Part shown: one piece after another, positions 1 through 56,893 of the stretch
Numbering within the stretch: position 1 is the first letter of the stretch
Layout: every line of letters starts with the position of its first letter
From: Ruditapes philippinarum
Lineage: Eukaryota
Direction: 5' to 3'
DNA length: 64,000 bases
Assembly (NCBI RefSeq): GCF_026571515.1
Contig: NW_026854123.1
Coordinates: 186,001 to 250,000 of the forward strand
Notes under the pieces: generated by a model
The model's input: the letters and a program-made list of their open reading frames with translations, nothing else
Databases searched by the model: none
What the model was told of the DNA's origin: nothing
Made by a program: the position numbers and the translations under genes

Positions 1-8
1 CTATTATG

Positions 9-1108
9 TACGGTGGCACAAAAGTGACATTGTGTGTTTTTATTTATCTCGTGGCCACGAGATACTATGTCGTGGCCACGAGTTACTAAGTCGTGGCCAC
101 GAGATAGCTAAGTCGTGGCCACGAGATACTATGTCGTGGCCACGAGTTACGAAGTCGTGGCCACGAGATAGATAAGTCGTGGCCACGAGGTACTATGTCG
201 TTGCCACGAGTTACTTAGTCGTGGCCACGAGATAGCAAAGTCGTGGCCACGAGATACTATGTCGTGGCCACGAGATACTATGTCGTGGCAACGAGTTACT
301 AAGTCGTGGCCACGAGATAAATAACCAATCAGATTACACCATTTATATGAATTTCCATAATTAACTAGACATTTGCTATATACAAGGATGTCCCTACTTC
401 ACCAGCATGTAAAAGTGCCATTTATACAACTTATTGACTGGTTAATAATTTTACTTTGACCCAGATTTGTGACCCAATTACCTCGAAATTATTAGATGTC
501 ATCTACTGATCAGGTGCCATGATCTTCCTTGGTTTTATAAACCATGGCTTATCCCTTCTAAATTATTCATCAGACATGGATTTTCCTTATAGGCTATCTA
601 CTGGCCATGGGCAATGTCCTTTCCAAATAAAATAAACCAGGACTAATTCCTTCTAATGTTATCGTATAAACAAGGTTAACAGGCCGTAGTACGTACAAAC
701 TGACCAAATCGATCACAAAATTGTCCCAACAAAGAGCTATAGTCAAAATTAATATTTGATGGGCCTTGGAAGATGACTTTCTAATGTGATCCTAAAGACA
801 AGTTCAAAGTGATTATCTTCATTATTTTCGAAGATTAATGTTGCATGTAAAAGTAAGTTACAAAGTTTGAAAAATTCATAATATATTTTCTGATTGGTTA
901 ATTATTTTGTGGCCACAACTTAGCTATCTCGTGGATACGACTTAGTCACTCGTGGCCACGACATAGTATCTCGTGGCCACGACATAGTATCTCGTGTCCA
1001 CGACTTAGCTATCTCGTGGCCACGATTTAGTAACTCGTGGCCACGACATTGTATCTCGTGGCCACGAGATAAATAAAAACACACACATGTTACCTTTGTG
1101 CCACCGTA
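9..1108. mobile_element. Non-autonomous TIR element (MITE), IS3EU-type ends, with subterminal 21-22-bp tandem arrays
   Basis: TIRs tacggtggcacaaaagtgacat... and ...atgttacctttgtgccaccgta. 6-bp TSD ATTATG at 3-8 and 1109-1114. About 13 (46-320) and 8 (908-1070) repeats with palindromic core TCGTGGCCACGA. Empty paralogous site at 63916-63921. Confidence 0.9.
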
Positions 1109-30095: not shown

Positions 30096-30426
30096 TACGG
30101 TGTTCCGTTTGGACAATCGTGATTTTTAATTTAGTCAGTACCCGCGATGCACGATGGTACGACGGAAAAAACGCGATGGTACGATGGTGAAAGCGCGATG
30201 GCACGATGGTGAAAACGCGAAAGTACGATGGTGAAAAAACGATGGCGCGATGGTGAAAACGCGATGGTACGATGGTGATAACGCGATATAACATCGCGAT
30301 TTCACCATCGTACCATCGTGTTTTCAAAATCGTGTCATCGTACCATTGCGTTTTCACCATCGTACCATAGTGCATCGCGGGTAAAGACGAAATAAAAAAT
30401 CACTATTGTCCAAACGGAACACCGAA
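30096..30426. mobile_element. Small MITE (331 bp), IS3EU-type ends, with internal ~22-bp tandem repeats
   Basis: TIRs tacggtgttccgtttggacaat and attgtccaaacggaacaccgaa (one terminal mismatch). 6-bp TSD GAATAT at 30090-30095 and 30427-30432. Internal cgcgatggtacgatggtgaaaa repeats occur in both orientations. Confidence 0.85.
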
Positions 30427-36736: not shown

Positions 36737-37142
36737 TACGGAAGCTTCAAAGGGTCACCTCTTACGCGATCTTTTATGAGAAGATTTACGCATGTCGAAA
36801 GAATTAAGGTGCAAAGGCATGATATCTTTAGTGTTTTCGCAAAAAATAATTCGAATAAACGAGAAGATTTGAGTTAATTGGCCAAATGTTTTCTTGCAAA
36901 AACAGAAACATTACACATAACGATTAATATTTTGACGAAAAATTAATAAAAGGTGTTTTTCGAAAAAAATGTAGAGGCAATACATGATGCATTTCACTTT
37001 CTCGAAAAAGATTATGACGGAATACCTCATTCATTTCACCTTCTCGCATTAACTTTTGTTGCATTACCATAATATATTTCATTTGATGAAAAAAGTTTGC
37101 GCAATGCCTAAAGAGTATTCCGCTTTTCGTTATAAATTTTTG
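36737..37142 (+). repeat. Left TIR of the large transposon
   Basis: Reverse complement of 56490-56893. I count 3 mismatches in the outer ~175 bp; the inner part is more diverged. Confidence 0.95.
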
Positions 37143-37228
37143 CATACGATGGCTTATTATTTCGTTAAATAAGTTTTAATAAAATTGTGATATTCAAGAC
37201 TACAGCAGGCAGCGTATTTGTGGAAGTC

Positions 37229-37252
37229 ATGGAGAAAGTTCTAACAGTATTG
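37229..37252 (+). CDS. Probable first coding exon of the transposase (MEKVLTVL)
   Basis: ATG at 37229 and donor TTG|gtatga at 37253. Phase 0 matches the acceptor ttactttcag|ATA at 40796, in frame with the transposase. Confidence 0.55.
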
Positions 37253-37511
37253 GTATGATATTATAATTTTTATCATCATCATTATTAGTAGTATTACAAT
37301 TAGTTGTAATAGGAGTTGTAGAAGTGGCGGTGCTGGCGGCGGTGGTTGTAGCAGCCCAGCAAGTATCAGTCTAAGTAGGTACATGTCGTAGTGCACGCTT
37401 TGTTAGATTCTCACACATTTGCCTTTTCATGATAGCTTATTTCATAGTAAGTGATTTACGGTTGCCATTCCCTACATCATTTTGCATTTTAATCCACGGA
37501 AACAATTTCTT

Positions 37512-38350
37512 AAACAGGAGCTGTCACTGAAGTGACTTATGCCCCCGATAGGAAGCTCTGGCATAAAATCCTCAATATATGACAAAATACTGGTTATATA
37601 CGCCCGACCTCCTTTGATAAATATCATTCCTATAATAGTCTAAACAATTTTCACTTAAATTCATCATTAAAGGCCCATAACTGTGCGAAAAAAAATCATG
37701 TACAAAATCATGGCACAATGCACAACTAGACTTGGCATGCAAACAACTTTATAAATGCTCACTGAAATTTTCCAAGCGGCAAAGTTAATTTACTGAAATC
37801 AGGAACTATTTACAACTACGCTTGGTGGCAAACAATTCTGTGAATAATCCCCCCCCCCCCTCTGTTTTGGTGATGAAGCGCGGACAAGGTTATTTTACTC
37901 AAAAAATTAACATTTAAGGGGCTATAACTGTCCCGAAATAGATTCAAGCGGAAAATCATGATACTATGCACAACTAGGCATAGTGACAAACAATCCTGTG
38001 ACGTTTCACTAAAATCACCCATCAGTTTATATGATGAAGCGCAGACAAGCTTATTTCACTCGACAAATTTCCGTTAAGGGGCTATCACTGTCCCAAAATA
38101 AGAATCAAGCTAAAAATCTAGATTATATGCACAATTAGGCATAGTGACAAACATTCCTGTGAAGTGTCACTGGAATCACCCATCAGTTTTCTTGATGAAG
38201 CACAGACAAGCTTATTTTACTCGAACAATGACCAGTAAGGGGCCATATCTATGTAAAAAAAGGATTCAAGAGGAAAATCAATAACGTATGCACAACTAGA
38301 CTTGGTGACAAACAATCCTGTGAAGTTTCACTGAAATCGCCCCATACAGC
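37512..38350. mobile_element. HINE/Helentron-type non-autonomous element with ~161-bp tandem repeats, nested in the transposase intron
   Basis: Starts aacaggagctgtcac...atgccccc. Repeats gcacaa.taggcatagtgacaaaca.tcctgtga recur at ~37968, ~38129 and ~38290. Confidence 0.6.
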
Positions 38351-38865
38351 GCGAACGACAAAATAACTATATAACTTCAATTTATTTGTTCATCCAGACT
38401 CGAAAGTATTCTTTAAATTACCTTAAAATTTATGTGGGCCCCCTCCCTAAAAAATGGTTTAAAATTATTGTAAGCATGCAATAACAGGATAAACACTTAC
38501 CAAACACAGCATTTTAGGAATCTTAATTAACCTTAGTATTTACTTCAGAAAAAGGGATGCATAATTATCAATATATATGATATTATTAAGAGTAAAATCA
38601 AAGTACTTAATATACTAGTTGTAGTGCGACTGGCAACAGTAACCAATGAAGTACTTAACAAAGCATATCTCTGTTTCATTATAAAGAATTTAATTGCCAG
38701 TGCAGTCATATTAAAGAAATTCCATATGGAGGTTTTGTCAAACGTGTTATTTGAGGTAAGTATTGAAAATAATACAAAATTCAATAAAAAAAAGTTATGT
38801 AATATCAACACTAATATGTTTACCTTTCAAGGTCCTACCGATATCAAGGTCAAATTTCATTATGT

Positions 38866-39260
38866 GTTAGCTCACCTACCACGTAACAAGATGAGATTTT
38901 GTGGTCAATTTTCCCGTCGTCCATCGTCCGTAAACAAAGTTGGCGTTAACGCTCTAGCGTTTTCATTTTTGCTTTGATCTTGACTAAACTTTGTCAGAAA
39001 GTGAATCTCAATGTAAGGTAGATCATTTTATACAATGGATTATGTCAGGTGAAGGTCAAGGTCACAGTGACTTTGAAAACAAAATCAACAAATTATGATA
39101 ATTTGTTATACATAATACTATGCTTGGAACAGTTTACCAAAATATGATAAAAAGAAATTTGCAAATGTAATAATATGAGTGAAATTTGGGTGCATTTATT
39201 TGAACCATACGAAAAATTGGAAATACCATATTGGCTGCAAATCTACCAACAGGCTTGTTA
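38866..39260. mobile_element. Degenerate HINE-type fragment
   Basis: Start ttagctcacct..., then a cgtcgtccatcgtccgt microsatellite and an aaggtcaaggtcacag motif. Confidence 0.45.
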
Positions 39261-39994
39261 TTGCTAAAACGCTTCTTGAGTGCAAATGTTTTGTTGTATG
39301 CAATTTTCTTCTCTTGTGAACATGTTGCAATTCACTAGAAAGTACAATAAAAATGCAGTATTGAAGAAATGAAAAGATACTTTTAAAACACGGCCGCCAT
39401 GAACCGGTTTCAAAAATATACTTCTACACAATGCCCAATGCCCACTCTGCCATTATACAGAAGAAAGGTAACATTTTTATTGCACACTACTTATTCACCA
39501 TACCTTACCCCTTGCGACTTTTTGTTCTTCCGAAATTAATAGAAATTAAATACTAATACAAATTGCTGGAAATAGTTCTATATGATACAAGACAGACACT
39601 AATCTTGGATCTGCCTACTAGTATACCTAAATTAGCGTACCGTGACGCATTCCGGACTTAAATCATACATTTCTAGTAAAGGGGAGTACTTCGAGGGAAT
39701 GACATAATGATATAACTGGTTACTAAAATATATTACATCCAGTTCCATAATAAGGAAATATTTTCGAATACTTCCTGTTACTCTGACTTTGATAACGAAC
39801 ATTGTTTTGAGTAAATATATTTATGGGTGGTACATGCATCGCATTCGATGTTCCAAACGGTTTAAAAAGTTGTGTTTAAGAAAGTTCATAGTGATGTGTG
39901 TTAACATTTACATAGTTGTTTGAAAGAGTCGATTGTTGTTGTTGTTTTAAACTCCCTAAAACACCCCGATAATTGGAAAAGTGCCATTCAACGT

Positions 39995-40335
39995 TGCAGT
40001 AGTATTGGTCCTAGTATTGCTAGCAGCAGAAGCAGCAGCATCAGCAGCAGCAGCAGCAGTAGTAGTAGTAAGAGCAGCAGTAGTAGAAGTAGTATAAGTA
40101 GCAGCAGCAGCAGTAGTAGTAGTAGGAGCAGCAGTAGTAGAAGTAGTATAAGTAGCAGCAGCAGTAGTAGTAATTGCCTAAGAAGTAAAAGTAGTATTAG
40201 TAGCAGTAGCAGTAGCAGCAGTAGTAGTAGTAGCTGAAGTAGTAAGAGTAGTTAAGTAGTAGAAGTAGTATTTATATAAATAGTCGTCTTAGTCTTATGC
40301 GTCGTCGTCGTAGTCATCGTTGTTGTCGTTAGTCG
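39995..40335. repeat. (AGC/AGT)n and (GTC)n compound microsatellite
   Basis: Visible directly; it explains the poly-Ser ORF 39920-40237. Confidence 0.9.
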
Positions 40336-40795
40336 TAATCTTTTATTTTACATATATTAATAGAAATAGATAATATTCTTTGCAAAAGTACTGAGAGACG
40401 CCTCCACATGAGCCAAAATATTTCAAGAAATTGAATCTTTGGAAAAATTTATTAAGATCTTTAAAAAGTAAGAAGATTTAATAGTTAAGTAATTATTTAC
40501 ATGTTATGAGCGTTTAATGACTGCTTTTGCAGTATTAATCACTAGTACTGCGTTAGTAACGCAGTAAGAGATTTTTATGTATATTTTGACCTCTTTTTTA
40601 TTATTAACGTGGATTGTACATGCCGTTTGCAATGTATAAATGACTTTCTTTGTTCATTTTACAATACTTTACTTTTAGATACATTTTTAAAAATTTCATA
40701 AAAATAAGCAAGAACCTGGAGGCATGTTGCTATTTAATGTTGTTGTATTCAGTGAAAAATTCTAATAATTTACTTTGCTATTTGATTACTTTCAG

Positions 40796-42034
40796 ATACT
40801 TCTTGTGGCAATTCATATCAAGTTGTCTTATGGTATGCTACGAGATGAGCTGAGCCTACACGATACTGTCCAAAAATACTTCAATCTTGGTTATACGCAT
40901 TCGGAAATGGCTGGAATGTTTTTGTTTGTTCACCATATTGTAGTTTCCAAAACTAAAATAAAAAGAATTCTTCGACGTTTAAACTTACGTAGACGTGAAG
41001 AAAGCAACCCAGAGGATATTGCTCGTGGAATAGTACAGCTACATCGAGAGGGGTATTCCGAACTAGGATACAGAGCAGCATGGAGAATGCTTTTTTTGAA
41101 ATATGGAATCAGAGCACATCAAAATACAGTGAGAATTTGTCTTAAGGCGTTAGACCCTTGTGGAGTAGTCAACAGGAAAGCAAGGCGATTAAGACGTAGA
41201 CAATATTTCAATCGAGGCCCAAACTTCGTAATTCATGTCGACGGATATGACAAACTAAAACCATTTGGAATATCAATTCATGGAGCTATAGATGGATTTT
41301 CCCGAAAAATTCTATGGTTGAAAGCTGCACCATCAAATAAAAACCCTGCTTTTATTGCATTTTATTTCATGCAACATGTCAAGAAACGTGGTCATGTCCC
41401 AAGAATGGTAAGGGTTGATGCAGGAACTGAAAACTGTACATTAGAGAACCTTCAGATCGCACTTAGAATGTCACATACTGATAGCATGTCAGGGTACAAT
41501 TCTGTTTCTGTTGGGAGATCAACTGCAAATCAAAGAATTGAAATGCTTTGGAGTTTCCTCTCGAGAAACTTTACTTGTTATTGGAAGAACTTCTTTAAAG
41601 ATTTGATTGATCAAAACCTATTTGATAATACCGATCAGTTGCATATCGAATGCCTCAGACTTTGTTTTATGCCTCTCATTCAAAATCATCTTGACTGTTT
41701 TAAGAAATCCTGGAATATACATACGATTCGGTCACAAACTTATTGCGAGACTGTAACAGGTAAACCCAACATGATGTATTATCAGCCAAGAATGTTTGGT
41801 TATACAGATTGTTCGTTTGCAATAAATTGTTCTGAAGAAGAATTGGATAATCTGGTGCGGGTGTATACCGAGGAACCACCTATCCATGGTTGTTGCAGCG
41901 AAATGTTGCAGTTGAGTGAAAATTGGATGGGGTTAAATTCACATTTCTTTCAACAACTGAACACTGCAGAACAAGCAAGCGATGTTTATCAAAACATACT
42001 ATCATCGCTTCATAGTCGATTACTACAGAATTAG
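40796..42034 (+). CDS. DDE transposase, integrase-core type (IS3/IS481-related, IS3EU-like); main exon
   Basis: Uninterrupted 419-codon ORF. HTH-like N-terminus (KYFNLGY...KRILRRLNLRRR; LGYRAAW). Motifs RRRQYFNRGPNFVIHVDGYDKLKPFGISIHGAIDGFSRKILWL, VRVDAGTEN, NQRIEMLW and WNIHTIR. Candidate triad D156/D215/E256 in ORF-track numbering. Splice acceptor at 40795; first internal ATG at 40835. Confidence 0.92.
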   Translation: MLLVAIHIKLSYGMLRDELSLHDTVQKYFNLGYTHSEMAGMFLFVHHIVVSKTKIKRILRRLNLRRREESNPEDIARGIVQLHREGYSELGYRAAWRMLFLKYGIRAHQNTVRICLKALDPCGVVNRKARRLRRRQYFNRGPNFVIHVDGYDKLKPFGISIHGAIDGFSRKILWLKAAPSNKNPAFIAFYFMQHVKKRGHVPRMVRVDAGTENCTLENLQIALRMSHTDSMSGYNSVSVGRSTANQRIEMLWSFLSRNFTCYWKNFFKDLIDQNLFDNTDQLHIECLRLCFMPLIQNHLDCFKKSWNIHTIRSQTYCETVTGKPNMMYYQPRMFGYTDCSFAINCSEEELDNLVRVYTEEPPIHGCCSEMLQLSENWMGLNSHFFQQLNTAEQASDVYQNILSSLHSRLLQN

Positions 42035-42249
42035 GTTTTTAGTGAGTGGGAAACATTTCATGGGGTATATGACAACGGCAGTAAATAGGCCACGTGGAGT
42101 TGTTCTTATTATGTCTGTATAATGCACATGCAAATACATGTATGTTTGATAATTGTTAAAATGTTATGGAATCGAAATGTATTAATTTCCTTAAAATGAT
42201 TTCATTTATGTACATATATCTGATAGTTTGTAAGGTAACGATAGATTAA

Positions 42250-42736
42250 GAATATCGACCTCAAAGTCAATAGGGGTCATATACTAATCATGACTTGCCT
42301 CCATGCCAAAAATGAAGACTGTGGGTCAAAGGAATCATAAGTTATTGGGCGAACAAGCTTTTTGAAGTCAAGGCCCCTGTGACCTTGACCTTTGACCTCA
42401 AAATCAATAGGGGTCCTCTACTTATCATGACTAACCTTCATGCCAAATATGACGACTGTAGGTCAAAAGAATCTTACGTTATTGGGCGGACAAGCTTTTT
42501 GAAGTCAAGGCCCCTGTGACCTTGATCTTTGACCTAGTGACCTCAAATCAATAGGGGTCATCTACTAATCATGACTAACCTCCATGCCAAATATGAAGAC
42601 TAAGGGTCAAAGGAATCTTAAGTTATTGGGCGGACAAGAAAAAACCGACGGACGGCCGTACGGAAGGACAGCCGAACTGACGGACAAGCTGATTCCAGTA
42701 TACCCCCCTTACAACTTTGTTGTGCGGGGCTATAAT
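42250..42736. mobile_element. HINE-type element with ~135-bp tandem repeats
   Basis: Repeats gaccttgacctttgacct...aatcaataggggtc, then a (gacg)n-like tract and terminal hairpin tatacccccctt...gcggggctataa. Confidence 0.65.
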
Positions 42737-42763
42737 GACAGAGTGATGGAATGATGGACCTGG

Positions 42764-43969
42764 TAAAATAGATAAATACAGAATCCCTAAAGAAAGCCCA
42801 ACACGGCAAAATTGAAAATGTTGCAGGCTCGGTTTGATTGAGCCTGTTCATGGACGGTACTGGAAAGTGCAAGTTACCGTCCACGCCCCCTAGCACCGGC
42901 TTAAGCAGAATTCAACATTTAAACGTGAAATAGTAAAATTTTGAATTTAGAAACATCCGCAGATGTGTTCATACGGCGGTTATCATGGAACCTTCAATGT
43001 GACACTTCCGTGCCATTCCATGAAAAGCGGCGTATGGTCCCCAAGTAATAAAAAGCGTGTGCCCTAAACGAGAAAACAATGGGCGGAACTAAATAAAATG
43101 GCAATTTTGAAAGGGGATCAGAGGTTATGAAGCCTGCGTATCACAGATAAGACGTCAAAAGACAAATTTAAAAAGCAGGCAACATATCCTAAGGGTGATT
43201 CAACATTATTCAAGTAGGAATATTGGAACCACCCAACTAGAAAATGCCGAAAAGTTGAAACTAAAAATACCACAAGCACAACAATAATGTCGTGCTGAAC
43301 GATCTTCAAGGATCGAAAATATAACATCATTGATTAAATGTACGGGGAGACTTTTTACAGCCGCCACACGGCACAAATAACACGGATGTGATCATAAAAT
43401 AGATAAATACAGAATCCCTAAAGAAAGCCCAACACGGCAAAATTGAAAATGTTGCAGGCTCGGTTTGATTGAGCCTGTTCATGGACGGTACTGGAAAGTG
43501 CAAGTTACCGTCCACGCCCCCTAGCACCGGCTTAAGCAGAATTCAACATTTAAACGTGAAATAGTAAAATTTTGAATTTAGAAACATCCGCAGATGTGTT
43601 CATACGGCGGTTATCATGGAACCTTCAATGTGACACTTCCGTGCCATTCCATGAAAAGCGGCGTATGGTCCCCAAGTAATAAAAAGCGTGTGCCCTAAAC
43701 GAGAAAACAATGGGCGGAACTAAATAAAATGGAATTTTGAAAGGGGATCAGAGGTTATGAAGCCTGCGTATCACAGATAAGACGTCAAAAAGACAAATTT
43801 AAAAAGCAGGCAACATATCCTAAGGGTGATTCAACATTATTCAAGTAGGAATATTGGAACCACCCAACTAGAAAATGCCGAAAAGTTGAAACTAAAAATA
43901 CCACAAGCACAACAATAATGTCGTGCTGAACGATCTTCAAGGATCGAAAATATAACATCATTGATTAAA
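42764..43969. repeat. Two near-identical tandem copies of an unclassified ~575-bp structured repeat (period ~631 bp)
   Basis: 42764-43338 matches 43395-43969. Further partial copies: 45381-45649 (+), 53335-53381 with 54723-54863 (-), and 57946-58015 with 58747-58815 (-). Confidence 0.9.
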
Positions 43970-44234
43970 CACTATTTGGCCCCGCAATTTATGGAGGGGG
44001 CATATAAATATTCTTTTGGGGTCTCAGTAGGTCCTACGCATAACCACTTCACCACAGAGCTATATCTCAATGCAGATGTTTTATTTGATTATTGTATCAT
44101 TATTTGTATGATATTTTGAAATAGTATGAGGATAATGATATACCAGATTTAGTAATGATGATAAATTGTGAACAAGAGCTGACAAATTTTGACAAATGCC
44201 CATGAAAAGGTTTCTTAAGCATGCAGGTATTATG

Positions 44235-45281
44235 AAACAAGAGGGCCATAATGGCCCTGAAATCACTCATCTGTAAATCGCGGGGCCAATTTTTACCCAG
44301 GAGCTTTTCTTTGGACAAACTTGGTAGACACCCATTTGAAGATGTTTCATGATAAATATCTAAGTTCTAGCTCTGAGAAGATTTTTTAAGTTTTAACTAT
44401 ACACATATAGGGAAAAACAATGAACCCCCCCCCCCTTTCTGGGCGGGCCAATTTTATCCCAAGGGCTTTTATTTGAAACAAACTTGGTAGACACTCACTA
44501 GAAGGTAATTCATGTTTAATATCTAAATTTTAGCTTTTCGGTTTTTTTACAGAAGATTTTTTAAGTTTTTAATATATACATAAAAGGAAAATCAATGATC
44601 CCTCTGGGCGGGTCCAATTTTAACCCCAGGGCCCTGATTTGAACAAAAATGGTAGACACCCATTAGAAGATGTTCCAAGCTAAATATCTAAGCTCTAGCT
44701 CTAAAGGTTTTTTTTTTTTTAAAAAAATTTTAAGTTTTACTATATACTTAAAGGGAAAAACAATGACCCCTGGGGCGGGGCCAATTTTGACCCCAGGGCT
44801 TTTATTTGAACAAACTTGGTAGCTAAGCTCTAGCTATTTGGTTTTTTTTTAAAGAAGATATTTTAATTTTTTACTATATAGTACATAAAGGCAAAAACAA
44901 TGATCCCCTGGGGCCAGACCAATAAGGAAAAGCAATGATCCCCTTGGCTTTTATCTGAACAAATTTGATAGAAATTCACTAGAAGATGTATCATGCCAAA
45001 TATCTAAGCCCCACATCTTTGGGTTTTTTTTAAAAGAAGATATTTTAAGATTTTTCTTTCAGTTGCCATGGCAACCAGAGTTCTGCATGGAATTTAATTC
45101 TTTGAACAATCTTTAAAGGTGACCACCAAAGGACTATTCCTGTGAAGTTTGGATGCAATTGGCTTAGTGGTTTATGAGGAGATGTTGTTTAAAGTAAAAG
45201 TTTACTGACGCCAGATCGACGGCCAGACGAAAAGTGATGACAAGAGCTAACCATGTCACTTTGTGACAGGTGAGCTAAAAA
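44235..45281. mobile_element. HINE/Helentron-type element with ~165-bp satellite-like tandem repeats
   Basis: Ends aaacaagagggccataatggccctgaaatcactcatctg and gtcactttgtgacaggtgagctaaaa. Internal units ggggccaattttgaccccagggc...gaacaaacttggtag. Confidence 0.75.
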
Positions 45282-45699
45282 TAAAGTATGAAAGTAAACA
45301 AAGGGTTAGTAAGAAATTAAGAAGTGCAGTGTATCGGTTCTTGTGCACTGCACTTCTTTAATGAGATCTATCATCCTATGAAATAGATGAAGACAGAATC
45401 CCTAAAGAAAGCCCAACACGGCAAAATTGAAAATGTTGCAGGCTCGGTTTGATTGAGCCTGTTCATGGACGGTACTGGAAAGTGCAAGTTACCGTCCACG
45501 CCCCCTAGCACCGGCCCAAGCAGAACCCAACATTTAAACGTGAAATAGTAAAATTTTGAATTTAGAACATCCGCAGATGTGTTCATACGGCGGTTATCAT
45601 GGAACCTTCAATGTGACACTTCCGTGCCATTCCATGAAAAGCGGCGTATGAAGTTGCAATTCAATAGATTTTTTAGTTGAAGAGAAATGGCCTGGACAA

Positions 45700-45930
45700 A
45701 ATTATTTGTTTGTTTGTTTCATTTTACGACTTTTCCCAACAGTCATTTCAGTCATATAGGCGGGAAGTTTCCTAACCATCGTACCTGGAGAGTTACACCA
45801 GTACTAGACTACCTTCCTCTGTGCAAAGCATCTCCCAGGGATCGCCAGAGAGGTAACTGGATAAGAAGTCATCGACTCTAACCCACAGTGACTGAGTTAT
45901 GATCCGGACAAGCATTAGGGAACGCCGCTG
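45700..45930 (-). mobile_element. SINE (mollusc Meta/MD-type-like)
   Basis: (ttgt)n tail followed by caacagtcatttcagtcatat...cctaacc...cctgg...accagtact. Confidence 0.5.
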
Positions 45931-46174
45931 ACACCGACAGCGACGCCACCGACAAAAGTTACCCCATTTTTTATGTTGCCTCTTCCAGATGACACACAAA
46001 GGTGTTGTGCAAGTTCCCAAAAATCTGTTACAGTCAATTATCATGTATCATGTAAATTGATATTGGCAAATATTTTGGGTATACTTGATGTCATGTAAAC
46101 AAATAACATTGTGTTGAACATTTTTCTCGGATGACTTAAATTGACAAAAGAATATAAATGAAAATAAAGCATAC

Positions 46175-49100
46175 CTTTACTTTAGAATACAAGTAGATTC
46201 TCAACTTCAACGTCATTTTATTCTCAGCGTATTTTGCTAAAGAAAATCCTTCTTTAGGTATTATCACATTATTCACTTTACCTAGCATGAAAAGCATGCA
46301 CGATTTTTTCCCCTTTCTGCTTCTTCCATCAGGAAAAAAGAAATCTGCAGCCATTTTTACAATTTCATCATATGATATATCTTTATGTAAAGCAGTGTCA
46401 AGAATGTTTTTAGGGTCCAATTTCGATGACCTCACTTGCTTGTATCGTTTTTCTTTTGCACTGAAATGCATCCATCCGATGCTAGTTCTAAATCGAATGC
46501 GCTGGGAATCAGTCTGAAAGAAATAAACTTATATACATACAAGAGACCTGCCATCAATGGCATTTTTGCAATTACAATGATGGTGTATTGTTTTTTGTTA
46601 TTTTGCGAATACACAATGTACATGTAAACAATTTTCCTTTAAATGTTAAACTTTTTTTATTAATTTTGCCAAATTTAATTTACAAATTTTTCGGGGTTGC
46701 GTCTAATCTCATTTAAATCAAACCTTAACACTTTCTCCAGTCCCTTTAACCCTTTTATCGCTCACTTGAATTTGCAGGCTCAATACCATTTAATTATGCT
46801 ATGTGATCTTGTTTTTGACCAGAAATGACCCATAATATTATTTTAACTTGACCCAAGAATCACTAAAACAACCTTTCTGACAATTAGCTTTCATGATATT
46901 TGATCAAAACAGTAACCTCAGAGTGTTAACAAAGTGCTTCCATGTTTGGACTGTGTGACCTAGTTGTTGACCTTAGGTGACCAATTATTCGAACTTGGCA
47001 AAGAAATCATGAAAAAAATCTTTCTGATCAATTTCCAGGATATTTGGATCAAAACAGTAACCTCTAGAGTGTTAGCAAGGTTTTTCATATTTGGGCTGTG
47101 TGACCTAGATCTTAACCCCAGATGATCCATATTCACACCTTACCTTGAAATCATTTTAACAACCTATTTTATAAAATTAAGAAAATAACAATTTTTAAAT
47201 ATAGCATTAACATGTTAAGTAACAAAGATGAAAATTTATAAAAAAATATAATGTAGGTGTTGATAATGAATGTTTATTTTGAATTTGAAGTAAATCCATA
47301 AAGAAATAAGAAAGTTAAAGAATGAATAAGAAAAAATCAAAGTTTAAGGAGGAGATAATTCTGGAAATATGGATTCTAGTTTCATAAACATTGTCATATT
47401 ATTATGATGTTGGAGTTTGAAGTAATTCCTATAAGAAAGTGAAAAATACAAATTTCTCAAAAGAATCTAAGTTCAAGGAGGATATAATTCTGGAAATAAT
47501 CTTGCCGAGTATTGAATCTTCTCACAAATGTTGAGAGATAATAACAATTTATTGAAATTGACACAAATATGAAGTTTGAAGTAGATACATTAAAAAGTAA
47601 ACAAGTTATTTAAAAAACAAAAACATTTTTGTCAAAAAAAATTTAAGTTCAAGGGAGGTAATTCTGATAATTTTTGTGCTAGAGTTGTAAACCTTATTAC
47701 ATATGATGTGGTTGATGACCGAAAACTTAAAGCTGGAAGTAAATACCTTAAAAATAAATAACTTATTGTGAAAAGGCATAAAAACTAGAATGAGAAATCT
47801 TGAAATTCAGTCTATTTGTTGCCATAGCAACAAAAATTTTCAACTAAAATACTAAAACTGATTTAAAAGTTCAACTTTATTTTAACTGCAAATTTCTTAA
47901 GTTCTTAAAAAGTAGGAATTGAAGATAAAAAGTAGGAATAAAGTAGGAAAAAGAAGGAACACTTGAAAAAGTAGGAGAAAGTAGGAAAAAGTAGGAACAA
48001 TTTGACAGCCTGAATTTTCATGAACTGCAGATCTGTAAAACCTTTTGAAAAGGCAATTTCTTCATTACCTCTCTATATACAATGTATAGTATACCAACAT
48101 TGGCGAAAACATTCAATTTTTATACAAACGCTTTTTGCAATTAATAATGCTTAAACAATTTCATTTGGGCAATAGTTTTGCATTCTAAGACCATGGAAAT
48201 TATGAGGCACACAGATATTTAAGTTTTGTTGCAGACAGACTGACATACACACAGGGCCCATCACTTTATTTAAACAAAACGAGTAATGACAATTATCATT
48301 GCAGATAAAAGTAACATTTGTTACATACTTACACATATTTAATTGTTTATAGTTAGAAATTTGCTGGTGTATTCAGTCAGTTTTGTCAAATAGTAAAACC
48401 CATATACATATATCACATTAATTGTCTAAAACTTATAATGTTGGAAAGAGATTATTAAGAATGAACTGAATTCATAGGTAACTTACCTTTTTCTTCTTCC
48501 ATTTGTTCGATTGGATTGATTCAACAAGTTTCATCATGTCGTTGTAATCTGCAAATACATGTAAATCAATTAATTGTAAAATGAAATACTATATTATGTT
48601 ATAACATAATATATATTATCACACACCCGTGCCGATTTTGCGACTCCGTAAATATGGTATTGCACGGCCGTGCATATATTTTGACGTGACGTCATTAGTG
48701 TTATGCAAACGTAGTGTAAAGACGCGCCTACTGTAGGCGCGTAAACGGAAAATGACTCTTATTTCACTTTAAACGGTCTTTATTTTGGGTATGTGATAAA
48801 TAGAATATTAAATTCGTGTAAGTTCATTACTGAATTTATTGCACTCGTTGAATAAAATGATATTATGCTCGCCAGAGGCTCGCATAATATAATTTTATTC
48901 AACTCGTGCAATAAATTCAGTATTGAACTTACACTCATTCAATATCCTCTATATATTAGATAACTATTGATTTAAGTCTTGTTACTTGTAAAGGTGGATC
49001 ATTGCATCTTATAAACTAAAACAGTATAAGGGGCCTTGATGACAAGAGTCTCTGCTTCCATGTGCATTAGAACTGAAGGCAGCAACAGCCAAAATAGTTT

Positions 49101-52100
49101 CTGTAGTACTCAAACAAATGAAACAGACAGAAACATTTTTACTGTTTGTTTTTTTTTTGTTTGTTTGTTTGTTGTTTTTCTTTGTTTTTTTTCATATGGA
49201 TTAGGGACTTTTGAACACTTTTTCTTCCATCTTAAAGGGGAGTATTTTCCAAACCATTGTTCCTTTGAAGAACCAGTACAAGATTCAAGCTATCAACAAC
49301 TAACAAACAAGGCATCTCCTGGAGATCAAACATATTGAAGTGTATGCTCAAAAACCAATTAACTGATCATGAAAAGCCTAAAAGGTATCAAATCTTTATA
49401 GCAAGTTGGTTACTCATAGAAAGTGTGAAGTTTATATAAATAAGTTGATTTTATAAATATATCAATGCAAAATAAAACACAAAAAGTTCAACAATAAAAA
49501 AATAATTTAAGTAAAAAAGTTTAAGAATTTTTTTTATAAATTTTATTAACAAAATTGTAGTGATGATTTAAATCAAAAAGTTATTTTTATAACTTCCCTT
49601 TATTATATAACAGATTGTCCCTTAAAGAAAGTTTAAGATTTCATTTTTCATTTATACCATGGTGGATGTTGTGTTTTAGTCAACTGGATACAGAACTATG
49701 TTATTTCAGACTGTCAAAATTAGGTATTTTGAGGATCCAGTCTTAATATTTTTTCAAAATAAGAAAACAATACTTTGCTCACAATTAACTCCAACATCAG
49801 TTATCTCCCTTAACATTTATTTATTGCAGAAAAGTCTTTGGTACAACAGTTTAATTTTGACAGGAATTTTGTGGCAAAATACTATGTCTTTCTAGCGATG
49901 AGATATGTACTACGTCTATTATGGATAGAGAACCTGAATTTACTAATCTAAAAAAAATGTTGATTTTTTTCTTTTTTCATAAAGAAAAATTGCCTATCAT
50001 AACAAAATATAAATTCCTTCAAAAAGTCCTCTTCTTATACAGTGTAAATTGACTCAAAAGACATAAAGATTACCTTCTTCTTTTGGTTTTTCATTTCCTC
50101 TATCTGCACTATTATCATCCGAACTTCCACCTAAAATAAATGATAAATTAATTTTATGATAATTATTATGGTCATTTAGCAATATTATTTGAATATGCAG
50201 ACAGACATCTTCTGCTTTCAGGTCAGAAAGTCTGATTATTCATAGAAACAAACGCTTTAGTAGACCTTTGCAGCATGATCAAGTGGTGAATGCTTTTAAC
50301 TTGTAAGCATTTGATTGTGGTTCAAACTTCTGCCATTGGAATCCATTGTTTCTTTCACCAAGAAACTTTTTCGCTGCTAAGTACTGCTTGGTACCAGGAG
50401 CAGACCTAAGTATCTTTTAATAAGTAGTACAGCTTTCTACACAATCAAGCTAAAGCAAATTAGTATAAACTAAAATCATTTAAATAGAACCTAGGTGTAA
50501 GCTATACATTAGTACATGTATTGAGGTATCATTTCAGTTATGATACACAAAAATGCTGACCATGCTTAAAAATAAGTTTTTTTTGTTTGTTTGTTTTAGG
50601 TTTTATTTCACATTGACACAGTATTGGTCATATCGCCACGTTCCAGCTTTACTGGTGGAGGAAGACCTCAGGTGCCCTTCTGTGCATTATTTCAGACACA
50701 AACGGGCACCTGAGTAGAACCACCGACGTAAGCTAGCTGGATACTTCCTCACATGAAAGAATCCAAAAAAATAAGTGGAAGAGCTTCAAAGACTCTGATA
50801 ATTGTGTTTGACTCACTCTGCTCATTAACTTATGATAGTGAACATGAAGAATTCCCTTTTAGAGGTATATTAAACATATGACCTGAACAACCAAAATGAG
50901 CCCTATTTTAAATAGACGTGGTCTTTCCCTTGAAGCTAAGGTCAGGAAGATGCTGCTCTTTTAAGAGTTTCATAAAAGATAAACTGATCATCATATGGCA
51001 TAAAGGGGTGTATTTAATGTACAGTCAGTCATGTAAAAACAGAAATATTTTAACAAGAGCAGTTTGTTAAACCATGTGCTTGACTGTTCTCAGTTATTAA
51101 TACTTAATTATTTAAGTGAGCAGGCTACATACTAAGTGCTTGTCATAGAAAAAAAATCAAGTCACACTTTTAAATGTTTCAAATTTCCAAAAGACTTAAA
51201 ACAATGAACATGAACATGAAATATAATGGAAATCCATATAACTATTGGATATGTTCAAGAGGAGATAACCTGGCATTAACATTATTCAAGGGCTATGGCA
51301 TCAAGGGACAATAGATTAAACTAAAACCTGAATTTGAATAATTCACAGTTTGTATTTTGCATCAATTTTTCAAAAATCAAAGCAACAAGTGAAAGAGCTG
51401 TTGAAAGAAATCTTAAGTTAAAAATCAAGGGCCAAATTTAATCAAATTTACATTTGCAGAATTATCCTGCATTTCATCTTCAACTGTATTTTTAGTATTA
51501 AATGCATAACTGTTACTATTTGCCATATGCACATTATCTCATTTTAGTACTAAATAATTTGAACAATCAAAAATTTTGAAACTAAAAACAATACAACTAT
51601 GCACCAAACAGATTCTCTAAGTACCTACCTGTGAATTGTGCAGTCCACCTTTCTTCTCCACATAGTACCATAAGTGTGGTATTTGGCTCTAAGGAATCAA
51701 AATAGTCTGCCTCTACTTCTACTCCATCGGAGTTTAGCATAAGTTTAATTTCCGTTTCAGGACGAATATTTAACTTTTGTCGACCTGCAAAAATATATAT
51801 CAAGTATAGTTTCATTATTTGCTCCTGATATATATATCAGGAACATCATGAATATATATCATGTATATCATAATAAATATAAAACAAGAGGGCCATGATG
51901 TTACTTAATTGCTCCCAAGAAACAATTGTTTTTCAGTGATATAATTTTTCCAATAAATTTGTAGAAAGACAAGTCCAGCTCAACTTCAACTTGTGTCTCT
52001 AGTTAAAAAGTTTCCCGACACTGATTGTTTTTTCTTTATAGTAAAAATGATATGAACCAAGTTTGGTGATCATCCATTCATAAATTTGTGATAAAATTGG

Positions 52101-55100
52101 CCTATGACTGTGCTTCGAAAATGCAATCTTTCTATTTTTTTAGTTATCTAAAAAATTAGATAATAACACAATCTCAGTATTTAGATAACCATGTATACTG
52201 TTTGTCAGGATGACACCACCAGTCAATATTTATTTAAGATAACATAGGTATACTAGTCAACTCAACAAGAAAGATAGTTTCAGGTTGAATTATCTTACTC
52301 TCTTATAGAAACATGAAAAAAAATTGTAACTTAACTATGTGCATAGAGGGAAAAAAAAGCAAAAGATTGTTTTGATGAAATGTATTCAGTAAACAAGATA
52401 ACTCTTTTAATAAAACTATACATACAGGGTTGAAAAGTGATATTGTATGAAACAGTTCAAAATTACTTTGAACAAGTGATAACCAAGTTTACAAAATGTG
52501 ATTCTGAATAAAAATAATTGAAACTGATACTAGAATAGCACAAAGAATTAAAAATTAAAAATACATAAAGACAAGCAAGAAAAGCTTCTGAAGTTGACCA
52601 CAATTTTCAATGTAAAGATCATTGTGACCCTGACCTTTGACTTTATGACCCTAAAATAAATAGGGGTCCTGTATTGGTCTCGCCTGTTCATCCTATAAAA
52701 TTTTACAGCTATAGGTTGATATATACTTAAGTTAATGAGCAGAAACCATTTTACATTTTAAATGTAATAGTGACCTTTACCTTTGACCTTGTGACCCCAA
52801 AATCAATAGGGGTCTCCTTCCCAATATGGACAATCATCCTATGAAGTTTGAATATTGTGGGCCAAATGGAACTTAAGTTATGCTCTGATACTGTTTTTAG
52901 TTTTAAGGTATCAGTGACCTTGACCTTTGACCATATGACCTAAAAATTAACATGGGTCTTCTACCCAATATGGACAATCATCCTAGGAAGTTTAAATATT
53001 CTGGGCCAAATGGAAGTAAACATATGCTCCTGAAACTGATTTCAGTTTTATGGTAATAGTGACCTTGACCTTTAACCTTGTGACCCCAAAATCAATAGGG
53101 GTCTTCTACCCAATATGGAAAATCATGCGGCTATATCCTGGATTAGACCCCGGGGTCTAAACCAGGAGTATATATAAGGTTCATTCCGTTTTCTTTAGTG
53201 TATTATATACACGTTTTAGACCTGAAAAATACATAGGAGATTGCCAATCATGCTATGAAGTTTAGATATCATGGGCCAGATGGAACTTAAGTTATGCTCC
53301 GGAAACTGTTTTCAGTTTTAAGGTGATAGTGACCTTTCTTGTTGGGTAGTTCCAATATAATACTATTCCTCACTTGAATACCATAGGAACTCGAGAACGG
53401 GACCGTAGATTGCGGCGCATATTTTAGATCGTGTAACGGTTTTTAAAAACGTTTCTGCTACATCTAAATATCTTTAAGTATTATCCGAGCATATGGCCTC
53501 AAACAATATATTATCACTTGAACCCAATCTGTTACTTTTAAAACTGGTCAAATTTTACGGTATTATAAAATAAAGTTTCCTTTTAAAAGGAAAGGCTTGC
53601 ACAGTTGTGCCTTCATAAAGTGTTTATTTAGTTTTTTTTTTTTTGTAAAAACGAATATTTTTTGTCAAAACAATTTGAAATCTATTCTCTATTGTATAAA
53701 ACTTGTAAAGAAAATAATCAATCATAAAAATACTAACTATTCTATCATTCTGAAAAGGAAACAAGTGTGAACATTTCATTTCCAGAGAAATCATTCGTTT
53801 TGGCAGTTTCTAATTTCATTTATATAGCATCTTTATGGACAAGTAAATGCACTAAAATACTTCGTTACGTGGTACCAATTAATAAGCATGTATCAACTAT
53901 GTTACACAACCACAGATACGGTAAGGTTAATGATATGCATGGGCTATTTTTAGATTACCTCACTGCGTTCATTAGATCTAAATATAAGTTGATCATGCAC
54001 TAATATTCTCTGTGATTTGGTAAGCAAGACCACCCTTTGGAGACGTAACCATCCTCTATTGTATAAGGTATATATGTTAATTAATATACAAAACTAATAC
54101 AGACAAAAACAATTATAAAAGAAACTAACTTTTGCGTCTTGAAAAAGAATTGAAACGTAACAATTTCGTTTATAATTTATTACGGTTTAAACCGATAAAT
54201 CAAGTAAAAATAGAAATCCTATTTATATAAACAAACTGGGATTACCGAAGTAACTAAAATAGCTTAGATTTCCGTAATATTACTTCGTCTGATTCCGCAG
54301 TATGACAGATTCGCCCGAATTGTCACGATTGCAATCGGAACTTCATCGGCTATAATCATTAAACCGAAGAGTGACGGAAAGGGCCAAAAAGTTGTGATTG
54401 GCACGATTGCAGTTGGTTTCTCGTTCAATCATGCACTAACAAATGTAAGCAGGAAACCACCTAACCGGAACAAGTTTTCCAAAACAAATGGGCTTTGTCA
54501 AATGGCGGATGTCACTCCTTTTCTTTTTTCAATATACCGTAAATTTGACTGATTTTTAAATTAGCAGACTATATTAAATTGAGATAAGATAATTAAAGAC
54601 CATCCGCTCGTATAATATAAAAAGATATTCAAAGGTCGGACAAACAATATGTAAAGCTGGTACGGATTCGGATTTATGCGCCGCAATATGCAGTCCTGTT
54701 CCAGAGTTCCTATGTTGAATACTGTTAAATCACCCTTAGGATATGAAGCCTGCTTTTTAAATTTGTCTTTTGAAGTTATATGTGATATGCAGGCTTCATA
54801 ACCTCAGATCCCCTTTCAAAATTCCATTTTATTTAGTTCCGCCTATTGTTTTCTCGTTAAGGGATTCTTATTTCACTCCAAACTCCTCACAGCGGTTACG
54901 TCACGCTTTGCTACTTTAACCACTGCCACCACTGAAATCACGTGATGATAGTTGTATCATGTGACAAAAACATGGCGGCCAGTTTCAGAACGCCAAGGAT
55001 CCCATATCAAACTGGCAGATTTATAATTACATCCTTACCAGACAAAATAAGTTCAAGACACACAATTTGTTATCACTTTAAAACAAGTGCCGGATCAAAT

Positions 55101-55929
55101 CTTTTTGTGCAATCGTTCAATAACTGTTTATATTCTGCCATTGTTTACTGGTTGTTACTATGCATACGGTGTCACAGTGAAAATATCTTTCGTTATGTTT
55201 TCAAAATAATTTTTATACGTATAATTTTTTACTTTCTTGTACATTAAGCATAACTATTTAACGAAAGAAAACTAAAATGATATAAAGTATTCTATTTTAA
55301 AATTAAAAGTGAAAAAAATATATCCGACTATATTCGACCGAATTTACTTGTGGTGGCAGTGGTTACTGTACAGATCAGGGGAAGTAACCGCTGCGAGGAG
55401 TTTGATTTCACTCTATTTGATCTTTGACCTTGTGACCCCAAAATCAATAGGGGTCATATACCCAATATGGACAATCATCCTATGAAGTTTGAATTGGAAC
55501 TTAAGTTATGTTCCGGAAACCAAATTGCTAACAGACAGACGGACGGACGCTAGGGGGTAAAACATAATATGCCCGAAATTGTTTGGGGCATATAAAAACA
55601 TTTTTAACTTATAGTTAACTTATAGTATATTTTAAAAAGGGTGTCATAATTTATAAAACATTTTTGGTTTAGAAGGTTTTTGCTATCAATCTTATCTGGT
55701 CATACTTTTTCATCTCGGGTCCAATACTCGTGTCTGTGGTCCTCACCGGCCTGTGCCATATACAAAAATATCAGATAAACAGATACAGTAAAGGGAAAGA
55801 TAATGCATGTTATAATGTGAACTTACATTTTGCAATGAGATCTTCAAAACTAGTCACAATCACCCCTTTTCTTACATTTCTTGTTACATTGAAAAGTTTC
55901 AACGGAAGTTTCTGTTTTTCGTTTTCCAT
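46175..55929 (-). CDS. Multi-exon gene: CIDE-N domain fused to a transposon-associated accessory domain (>=239 aa)
   Basis: Exons 55929-55827, 51784-51629, 50130-50074, 48548-48487 and 46513-46175 all have GT-AG boundaries and compatible phases (1,1,1,0). Product: MENEKQKLPLKLFNVTRNVRKGVIVTSFEDLIAKCRQKLNIRPETEIKLMLNSDGVEVEADYFDSLEPNTTLMVLCGEERW (CIDE-N), then a linker, then RFRTSIGWMHFSAKEKRYKQVR...AADFFFPDGRSRKG...LRIYLYSK. Possible ATG-only upstream exon at 56445-56443. The 3' end is uncertain (candidate last exon 46024-45971, or read-through to the stop at 46136). Confidence 0.85.
46800..47830. repeat. Degenerate HINE/satellite-like tandem repeats (intronic)
   Basis: Recurrent gatcaaaacagtaacctc.agagtgtta and aagttcaaggaggatataattctg units. 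Confidence 0.5.
47908..48012. repeat. (AAAGTAGGA)-type short tandem repeat, possibly a MITE subterminal array
   Basis: About seven aaagtagga-like units ending at gacagcctg. Confidence 0.6.
48612..48955. mobile_element. Foldback element (possibly Crypton-like), intronic
   Basis: Long hairpin gtgtaagttcattactgaatttattgcac...ctcgccagaggctcg...gtgcaataaattcagtattgaacttacac (48800-48955). Inverted pair ttatcacacaccc / gggtatgtgataa. Confidence 0.6.
50280..50475 (+). mobile_element. Degenerate tRNA-derived SINE
   Basis: A-box-like aagtgg and B-box-like ggttcaaac, then caagaaacttt...agtactgcttggtaccagga and tail aattagtataaactaaa. Confidence 0.5.
50585..50765 (-). mobile_element. Truncated SINE
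   Basis: (ttgt)n tail, then ttccagctttactggtggaggaagacctcaggtgccc...gggcacctgag (hairpin). Related to 13590-13735. Confidence 0.55.
53382..54714. mobile_element. Non-autonomous TIR element, P-element-like
   Basis: TIRs cataggaactc...attgcggcgcata / tatgcgccgcaat...gagttcctatg. Perfect 8-bp TSD TTGAATAC at 53374-53381 and 54715-54722. Confidence 0.8.
54879..55404. mobile_element. MITE with 9-bp TSD (Mutator-like)
   Basis: TIRs caaactcctcacagcggttac / gtaaccgctgcgaggagtttg. TSD ATTTCACTC at 54870-54878 and 55405-55413. Inner inverted pair taaccactgccaccac / gtggtggcagtggtta. Confidence 0.8.
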
Positions 55930-56489
55930 GCCGGCACACTGAAACTGAAATAAAAAATGGAGTAACGGAATATAAGGGAAGTAACTGTACATATTACAAA
56001 CTTCATTCTCATCTTTCCATATACTGTACTGTATAGCCGATTTGGTTCATTCAAAAAATTATTTATTTATTTAGATCTATTTATTACTTTTTTATTTATG
56101 AATTTATACGTAAAAGGGTCGAAAGAGAAAAGATTGATAAATTTGGATCTTTCAAACAGAACATTACTTCCAGGTATTCCAAATGAAAAGCAATTTATTC
56201 GCATCAACAGAAATTCAGAGTTCCTTGGATCGTGGACCCTTCGGGATTTCTAAAGCCTTGCAACAGAATGTCTACAGTTTTATCAGCAAATGATAGTACC
56301 AAATGCATGGATATGTGAAAAAAATTGACCGACTGACATGATGCATATTTCTATCAAAATGATTCCCTATTCAGAAAATAAGCCTAATTATGAAAGCATA
56401 TCATGCATTTGTAAACAGTTTAGCAAAAACAGGAGAACTTACCATTTTTTCTTCTCGAATGGCCTCGTGTCCAAAAATGACGATCTCGA

Positions 56490-56893
56490 CAAAAATATAA
56501 CGAAAAGCGGAATATACTTTAGGCATTGCGCAAACATTTTTTCATCAAACGATATGTATGAGGGTAATGCATCAAAAGTTTTTGCGAGAAGGTGTAATGT
56601 ATAAGTTATTGCGTCAATTTTTTTTGAGAAAGTGAAATGTAGCATGTATTGCGTCTACATTTTTTTCGAAAAAACACATTTTTTTAATTTCTCGCAAAAA
56701 ATTTACTCGTAATGTGCAATGTTTCTGTTTTTGCAAGAAAACATTTGGCCAATTAACTCAAATCTTCTGGTTTATTCGAATTATTTTTTGCGAAAACACT
56801 AAAAATATCATGCCTTTGCACCTTAATTCTTTCGACTTGCGTAAATCTTCTCATAAAAGATCGCGTAAGAGGTGACCCTTTGAAGCTTCCGTA
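56490..56893 (-). repeat. Right TIR of the large transposon
   Basis: Reverse complement of 36737-37142; ends gaagcttccgta. Confidence 0.95.

What the first reader, a model, noticed from the sequence alone, without database searches (positions are those of the whole stretch)
37229..40837. Transposase may begin with a signal-peptide-like leader supplied by a remote micro-exon
Seen: ATG-exon 37229-37252 spliced to the acceptor at 40796 gives MEKVLTVLILLVAIHIKLSYG-MLRDE, which has a charged start, a hydrophobic core and a small-residue S-Y-G end. A second in-frame ATG (40835) follows immediately. Inference: there could be two isoforms, one ER-targeted or membrane-tethered and one nuclear. That would be odd for a transposase and could be a self-regulation or export mechanism.
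Basis: partly seen in the sequence, partly recalled or inferred. Interest (0 to 1): 0.7.

Follow-up and report, generated by a model that had tools for sequence, protein, structure and literature searches.

The report
Transposase with an export signal peptide
The DNA-cutting enzyme of this jumping gene has to work in the nucleus, yet it is predicted to start with a protein-export tag whose first part likely comes from a tiny exon 3.5 kb upstream; many relatives in marine invertebrates carry such a tag too, so these enzymes likely detour via the cell's secretion machinery.

Summary
The 24-nt ATG exon (37229-37252, GT donor), the acceptor at 40796 and the 420-aa product are as described. They lie in a 20-kb IS3EU/GingerRoot DNA transposon (36737-56893). 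Of 13 candidate upstream exons tested, this one is best kept in both subfamilies (13 of 14 and 6 of 10 copies). A paralogue's public gene model has the same micro-exon layout. The leader is a family trait: 93 of 246 anchored sequences have a hydrophobic leader, and 84 of these have a signal-peptidase (-3,-1) site (53.9 expected from shuffles). A nested clade that includes the wasp proteins lacks it (0 of 48). The exact splice was not seen in five runs, and SignalP could not be run. The two-isoform idea is weak: the inner ATG is intact in 0 of 10 divergent copies and sits at the predicted +1 residue, usually Val/Ile. Best model (inferred): a cleaved ER signal peptide, with translocation halted at a hydrophobic helix plus basic cluster, leaving the enzyme on the cytosolic/nuclear side. 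The scan noted the same leader before in another genome (e1-9383785). I found it in no paper searched.

The parts
36737..56893 (.). IS3EU/GingerRoot-type DNA transposon copy (20,157 bp including nested repeats), ends TACGG..CCGTA
   Evidence: flanking 6-mers match 5 of 6 here, and 6 of 6 at the C3853 copy
36737..37142 (+). left terminal inverted repeat
   Evidence: 371 of 401 aligned positions match the right end
37229..37252 (+). predicted coding micro-exon 1 (8 codons: n-region and first half of the h-region), phase-0 GT donor at 37253
   Evidence: splice not observed
37253..40795 (+). predicted 3,543-nt intron holding satellites and other repeats
   Evidence: acceptor CAG kept in 24 of 24 copies
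40796..40834 (+). rest of the h-region and the c-region of the predicted signal peptide; predicted cleavage after Gly21 (Ser at -3)
40796..42034 (+). exon 2: open 412-codon frame with two HTH regions and a DDE integrase-type core (D157, D216, E257 in 420-aa numbering)
   Evidence: Pfam PF24764 E 8.7e-34; invariant columns; model and fold matches
40835..40837 (+). inner ATG, equal to the predicted +1 residue of the mature protein; not conserved
40925..40966 (+). hydrophobic helix 2 of the first HTH, followed by a basic cluster; candidate stop-transfer segment
46139..46513 (-). exon of the element's second, convergent gene; function unknown
51630..51788 (-). second gene: exon with the C-terminal part of a CIDE-N domain
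   Evidence: PF02017 E 4.8e-12; exon limits read by eye
55826..55945 (-). second gene: probable first coding exon with the start of the CIDE-N domain
   Evidence: PF02017 E 5.5e-4, below the curated cut-off; limits approximate
56465..56893 (-). right terminal inverted repeat

Best explanation
This is an IS3EU/GingerRoot DNA transposon whose intact transposase frame is likely completed by an 8-codon micro-exon, giving a predicted cleavable ER signal peptide of a kind that many marine-invertebrate relatives share. Inferred mechanism: the signal peptide sends the ribosome to the ER and is cut after Gly21. About 25 residues later, a marginally hydrophobic helix followed by a strongly basic stretch would halt translocation. 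The DNA-binding and DDE domains would therefore stay on the cytosolic side. The processed enzyme would then slip back out, or stay loosely tethered to the ER/nuclear envelope, and only part of it would reach DNA; this would ration or position the transposase. Shown: element anatomy, open DDE frame, conservation of the exon and acceptor, and the leader signature across homologues. Inferred: the exact splice, ER targeting, cleavage, aborted translocation and the purpose.
For: (1) Leader signature: 93 of 246 anchored sequences (92 homologues plus the window model) have an h-region. Of these, 84 have a (-3,-1) site against 53.9 in shuffles, and 47 have Ala at -1 against 25.1; 0 of 20,000 simulations reached either count. 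(2) The h-region keeps hydrophobicity (mean KD 2.73) at only 18% pairwise identity, against 53% in the core (59 leader-bearing sequences). (3) In this genome, 9 of 11 other families (20 loci) show such a leader, 6 of them right behind a phase-0 acceptor (grouped by eye). (4) Public gene model P0058 equals a 3-codon ATG exon 3,074 nt upstream plus exon 2 of paralogue L110, letter for letter, and is also listed from Logan. (5) The micro-exon is 92% identical across 15 diverged copies against 73-83% in its flanks. (6) The acceptor region is used in RNA: contigs of runs X11 and X12 join host exons to a related copy 6 nt upstream of it. (7) Helix 2 has 1.4 charged residues in 89 leader-bearing sequences, against 3.8 in 48 leaderless nested-clade sequences and 2.6 in 28 outer-grade sequences; net charge behind it is +5.9. 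(8) AlphaFold confidence is low across the cleavage site and linker (52-57 against 83 or more in the following blocks). (9) Precedent: HBV precore p22 returns to the cytosol and nucleus after signal cleavage (PMC9300162, passages read).
Against: No read or contig showed the 37252-40796 joint. It is not among the 15 joints listed (225 not shown), and in X23 and X24 reads ran unspliced through the acceptor with no loose end there. No SignalP or DeepTMHMM was run; my test is a home-made rule. Helix 2 is part of a confidently folded HTH and is a poor transmembrane segment (median +1.9 kcal/mol over 13 residues and +5.6 over 17, on a recalled scale). The leader/helix-2 link is not significant once kinship is allowed for: of 9 independent pairs, 2.5 went the same way, 0 the opposite way and 6.5 were unchanged, p 0.25. 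The basic cluster is also present in leaderless proteins (+4.1 and +4.8). The 15 diverged copies are related, so item 5 amounts to roughly one comparison. The closest homologue, P0001, is called from a Met at the same place as the inner ATG, though this may be a gene-caller artefact.
Confidence: 0.5

Rival explanations
1. The signal peptide drives full translocation and secretion. The transposase leaves the cell and enters others (for example germ cells) through its arginine-rich stretches.
For: Textbook n/h/c leader with a cleavage site. Helix 2 is too weak to be a sure stop-transfer segment. The named leader-bearing hits are marine invertebrates.
Against: No sign of selection by a lumenal passage: N-glycosylation sequons are 149 observed against 161 expected in leader-bearing proteins, much as in leaderless ones (80 against 93). 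No uptake mechanism was tested.
Confidence: 0.13
2. The leader is a real signal peptide that simply routes most of the protein to ER degradation, and activity comes only from molecules that are never targeted.
For: Same leader evidence. Incomplete targeting is described for HBV p25 (PMC9300162, passages).
Against: A pure sink would not need a conserved cleavage site or the conserved Val/Ile-Leu-Pro start behind it.
Confidence: 0.13
3. The leader is not a targeting signal but a structural helix that packs on the hydrophobic face of helix 2 or mediates oligomerisation.
For: The surface positions of helix 2 are hydrophobic where a leader exists and charged where it is absent. The first 10 residues of P0188 are modelled as a helix with pLDDT 77.
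Against: Identity is only 18% in the h-region, the linker length varies widely, the (-3,-1) motif is enriched, and confidence is low around the junction.
Confidence: 0.14
4. One reading: two isoforms, an ER form from the micro-exon ATG and a nuclear form from the inner ATG at 40835.
For: The inner ATG is present in 14 of 14 near copies. P0001 is called from the same position.
Against: Intact in 0 of 10 divergent copies; 16 of 89 leader-bearing sequences have any Met in this interval. The upstream ATG has G at -3 and +4, whereas the inner one has C at +4.
Confidence: 0.07
5. The 37229 exon is a chance motif, and the hydrophobic stretch is an intron or polypyrimidine artefact.
For: 14 such candidates exist in the left arm, and the splice was not seen.
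Against: The exon-2 part of the h-region lies behind the acceptor. Paralogues L116/L123 and L117 have the whole leader with its ATG in one uninterrupted frame. Conservation singles out this exon.
Confidence: 0.03

Closest known systems
IS3EU/GingerRoot DNA transposons (PMC10045372, PMC12730594, PMC6839031; passages read)
   Same: TA..TA (TAYGG..CCRTA) ends, 6-bp target duplication, terminal inverted repeats, an integrase-like DDE transposase with N-terminal HTH and no HHCC motif, and a second gene in opposite orientation
   Different: The transposase starts with a predicted signal peptide split by a 3.5-kb intron. 'signal' has 0 occurrences in the GingerRoot paper's main text, and 'signal peptide' has 0 in PMC10045372. 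The second gene here has a CIDE-N domain; the fungal elements have an alpha-kinase or TET/JBP gene.
Hepatitis B virus precore protein p25/p22 (PMC9300162; abstract and passages read)
   Same: works like (proposed): a basic nucleic-acid-binding protein given a cleavable signal peptide, part of which returns to the cytosol and nucleus
   Different: unrelated sequence and fold, viral origin; it has a separate leaderless product from another mRNA, which is not supported here
Bacterial IstA/TnsB transposases and retroviral integrases (Foldseek)
   Same: RNase H-like DDE core (best E 3.5e-6, PDB 8b4h)
   Different: only 10-15% identity and low TM scores; no known export signal (recalled)

Membership tests
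IS3EU/GingerRoot | termini TA..TA (TAYGG..CCRTA) | tested here: met
   TACGG..CCGTA; definition
IS3EU/GingerRoot | 6-bp target-site duplication | tested here: met
   5 of 6 in the window copy and 6 of 6 in the C3853 copy; two copies examined
IS3EU/GingerRoot | terminal inverted repeats | tested here: met
   about 400 bp, 371 of 401 matching
IS3EU/GingerRoot | integrase-like DDE transposase without HHCC motif, first Asp 100-300 residues from the N-terminus | tested here: met
   PF24764; D157/D216/E257 invariant in 94 sequences; HTH regions upstream
IS3EU/GingerRoot | phylogenetic placement with Repbase IS3EU reference sequences | not testable with these tools
   no Repbase sequences available
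Cleavable ER signal peptide | short n-region, h-region of 7-15 hydrophobic residues | tested here: met
   residues 4-14 have mean KD 3.45; depends on the predicted splice
Cleavable ER signal peptide | small residues at -3 and -1 | tested here: met
   Ser/Gly in the window; 84 of 93 against 53.9 expected
Cleavable ER signal peptide | position at the true N-terminus of the translated mRNA | tested here: inconclusive
   splice not seen; indirect support
Cleavable ER signal peptide | SignalP-type prediction; SRP-dependent targeting and cleavage | not testable with these tools
   no predictor available; bench test needed
Type I membrane protein | transmembrane helix of about 17-20 hydrophobic residues after the signal peptide | tested here: not met
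   best 17-residue window is +5.6 kcal/mol median (+7.9 in the window; recalled scale); only a marginal 13-residue segment

The most novel reading that the evidence does not exclude
A large branch of animal IS3EU transposons makes its transposase as a secretory-pathway precursor: the enzyme is processed at the ER and either held at the nuclear envelope or exported to other cells, such as the germline. This would be the first DNA transposase controlled or spread through the secretory pathway.
Probability: 0.6. Interest if true: 0.88.

Novelty: new variant of a known kind. Interest (0 to 1): 0.72.

Why it matters
DNA transposases are taken to be nuclear proteins made in the cytosol (established knowledge). 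A signal peptide kept by selection across molluscs, echinoderms and other marine invertebrates, and absent from a wasp-containing clade, would reveal a new layer of transposon control: dosage or positioning through the ER. In the bolder case it would be a route for the enzyme to move between cells. It is directly testable: this copy and the C3853 copy have open frames, and natural leaderless relatives serve as controls. It also predicts that such transposases are being mis-sorted into predicted secretomes.

Tried and rejected
RNA proof of the splice: five runs were laid (X1, X11, X12, X23, X24, of 24 listed) in two calls, and the joint was not seen. The raw runs looked unstranded, were read to only 4-5%, and covered intron and exon alike. 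The 30-letter loose end was not found whole in the window, the loci or the genome because it spans a host exon junction. An 18-letter hit alone is at chance level (the control pattern also hit once per strand), but here it is flanked by AG/GT and the preceding letters match the upstream exon end. No element copy lies downstream of those host exons in C4172, and the transcript matches none of the 20 copies compared. A homodimer prediction of the N-terminal domain returned no verdict and is not used. The ESM Atlas search on a homologue's leader gave no usable hit. The independent-pairs test of leader versus helix 2 was not significant. A longer-homologue search for the second gene found none. 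Searches for the ends of paralogues L110 and L111 were uninformative. Dropped rows: 96 of 376 sequences under 330 aa and 34 of 280 not anchored; four doubtful leader calls (P0266, P0319, P0372, P0375) were removed from then on. 64 'mid' and 45 'long' sequences are not counted as leader-bearing, although many look like gene-caller truncations. Literature: (listings) and term searches in five papers found no report of a transposase signal peptide. Repbase Reports, subscription journals and supplements were not seen and may bear on novelty.
Full report
Observation. The coordinates are right. An ATG at 37229 opens 8 codons that end at a GTATGA donor; an acceptor ends at 40795; the open frame runs to 42034; and the inner ATG is at 40835. 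Joined by coordinates, the product has 420 aa. Exon 2 carries Pfam PF24764 (E 8.7e-34) and a weak HTH_21 match. Its model (mean pLDDT 91.7) matches DDE transposases and integrases.

The element. Comparison with 20 fetched genome stretches and the window's inverted repeats puts the ends at 36737 and 56893. The ends read TACGG..CCGTA, the terminal repeats are about 400 bp (371 of 401 matching), and the flanking 6-mers match 5 of 6 here and 6 of 6 at the C3853 copy. These are the published marks of IS3EU/GingerRoot (PMC10045372 and PMC12730594, passages). The micro-exon lies about 90 bp inside the left terminal repeat, so it travels with the element. A second gene runs on the minus strand and begins with a CIDE-N domain. 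The host looks like a bivalve mollusc (inferred from homologues and runs).

Is this the first exon? Fourteen ATG..GT phase-0 candidates exist in the left arm, so the motif alone proves nothing. Of 13 tested, the 37229 exon is intact in 13 of 14 near copies and 6 of 10 copies of a subfamily about 80% identical. The next best reaches 9 of 14 and 4 of 10, and the rest 0 of 10. It is 92% identical across 15 diverged copies against 73-83% in its flanks, though those copies are kin. A paralogue 42% identical (L110) has a public gene model, P0058, that equals a 3-codon ATG exon 3,074 nt upstream plus its exon 2, letter for letter. The same protein is also listed from Logan contigs, which suggests a spliced transcript (inference). 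Direct RNA evidence is missing. The joint is not among the 15 listed (225 hidden), and reads of X23 and X24 cross the acceptor unspliced. Contigs of X11 and X12 do show host exons from C4172 spliced into a related copy 6 nt upstream of this acceptor. Copy L002 has an extra AG exactly there, so the 3' splice region works.

The leader is a family trait. Of 376 sequences gathered (plus the window model), 280 were at least 330 aa and 246 could be anchored. Of those, 93 have a hydrophobic stretch 15-50 residues before the first HTH. Eighty-four of the 93 have a (-3,-1) small-residue site behind it (53.9 expected from shuffles), and 47 have Ala at -1 (25.1 expected). The residues that follow are mostly Val/Ile, Leu, Pro. 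Across 59 leader-bearing proteins the h-region keeps mean KD 2.73 at 18% identity, against 53% in the core, which is how signal peptides evolve (established knowledge). Named examples come from Mytilus, Pecten, Mizuhopecten, Lytechinus and Ptychodera. In this genome 9 of 11 other families show such a leader: six directly behind a phase-0 acceptor, two with no intron, and one with ATG after the acceptor; two families have none in exon 2 (grouped by eye). On a FastTree core tree (239 sequences, midpoint root, groups read by eye), a clade containing the parasitoid-wasp proteins nests among leader-bearing ones and has 0 of 48 leaders. An outer grade has 2 doubtful calls in 28.

The inner ATG. It is the predicted +1 residue after cleavage. 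It is ATG in 14 of 14 near copies but 0 of 10 divergent copies, and only 16 of 89 leader-bearing proteins have any Met in that interval. The two-isoform idea is therefore not a family mechanism.

Mechanism. Leader-bearing proteins have an almost uncharged helix 2 in the first HTH (1.4 charged residues, against 3.8 and 2.6 in the leaderless groups), followed by net +5.9. This resembles a weak stop-transfer signal about 25 residues after the cleavage site. It is too polar for a stable transmembrane helix (recalled Hessa scale) and folds as part of the HTH, so release after aborted translocation, or loose tethering, fits best. HBV precore is a precedent: 15-20% of p22 returns to the cytosol and nucleus after signal cleavage (PMC9300162, passages). 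Caveats: the covariation rests on very few independent events (p 0.25), and the basic cluster is also present without a leader. Sequons are neither enriched nor depleted (149 against 161), which gives no support to full secretion. AlphaFold is unsure of the cleavage region and linker in both models but gives the first ten residues of P0188 pLDDT 77, so a structural role for the leader is not excluded. My odds: leader real and conserved about 0.9, this micro-exon about 0.75, ER signal function about 0.7, the whole mechanism 0.5.

Novelty. The element is an ordinary member of a known superfamily; the signal peptide is what is new. Searches and term searches in PMC10045372, PMC6839031, PMC12730594, PMC11934779 and bioRxiv 10.1101/2021.09.26.461848 (passages only) found no description. 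PMC11934779 states that the structure and function of IS3EU remain largely unexplored. Supplements and Repbase Reports were not seen. The scan's own notes hold one earlier report of the same leader in another genome (e1-9383785), found after my analysis and not counted as evidence.

Verdict: a real and surprising feature, a new variant of a known kind, interest 0.72. It needs an RNA junction and a microsome assay.

Noticed in passing
window 55826-55945, 51630-51788, 50073-50130, 48486-48550, 46139-46513 (minus strand): The element's second, multi-exon gene begins with a CIDE-N domain (PF02017). Its 46.1-46.5 kb exon has relatives near other family members in this genome and unnamed mollusc, chordate and cnidarian look-alikes. 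One listing search for CIDE-N in transposons gave nothing specific.
   Followed up: partly
G000:C4172 (L061) and runs X11, X12: A copy of the element acts as a gene trap: host exons, including a 22-nt micro-exon, are spliced in frame to the transposase exon 6 nt upstream of the predicted acceptor. The copy is not among those fetched and may be polymorphic.
   Followed up: partly
L055-L059, L096, L100-L103: A subfamily about 80% identical has a broken transposase frame near its start in the copies examined, yet keeps exon 1 and both splice sites.
   Followed up: partly
L111 (candidate exon 4,489 nt upstream of its acceptor): A family with no leader in exon 2 has a candidate upstream exon encoding a 10-residue hydrophobic stretch with a GTAAGT donor, which could supply the leader from exon 1 alone.
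   Followed up: partly
P0157, P0165, P0214, P0251, P0258, P0281: Leaderless relatives carry other N-terminal additions instead: zinc ribbons (P0258, P0281) or an ~85-residue domain with a weak TDP-43_N match in P0214.
   Followed up: partly
window 42257-42674, 42764-43969, 44232-45285, 52604-53299: Nested insertions inside the element: 137-146-bp and 163-bp satellites, and a 631-bp tandem duplication of a small mobile repeat that is also inserted in the intron of copies L049-L052.
   Followed up: no
window 1-330 and 865-1092; 30098-30424; 48796-48954: Palindromic 21-22-bp repeat arrays and hairpin-ended repeats, probably non-autonomous elements.
   Followed up: no
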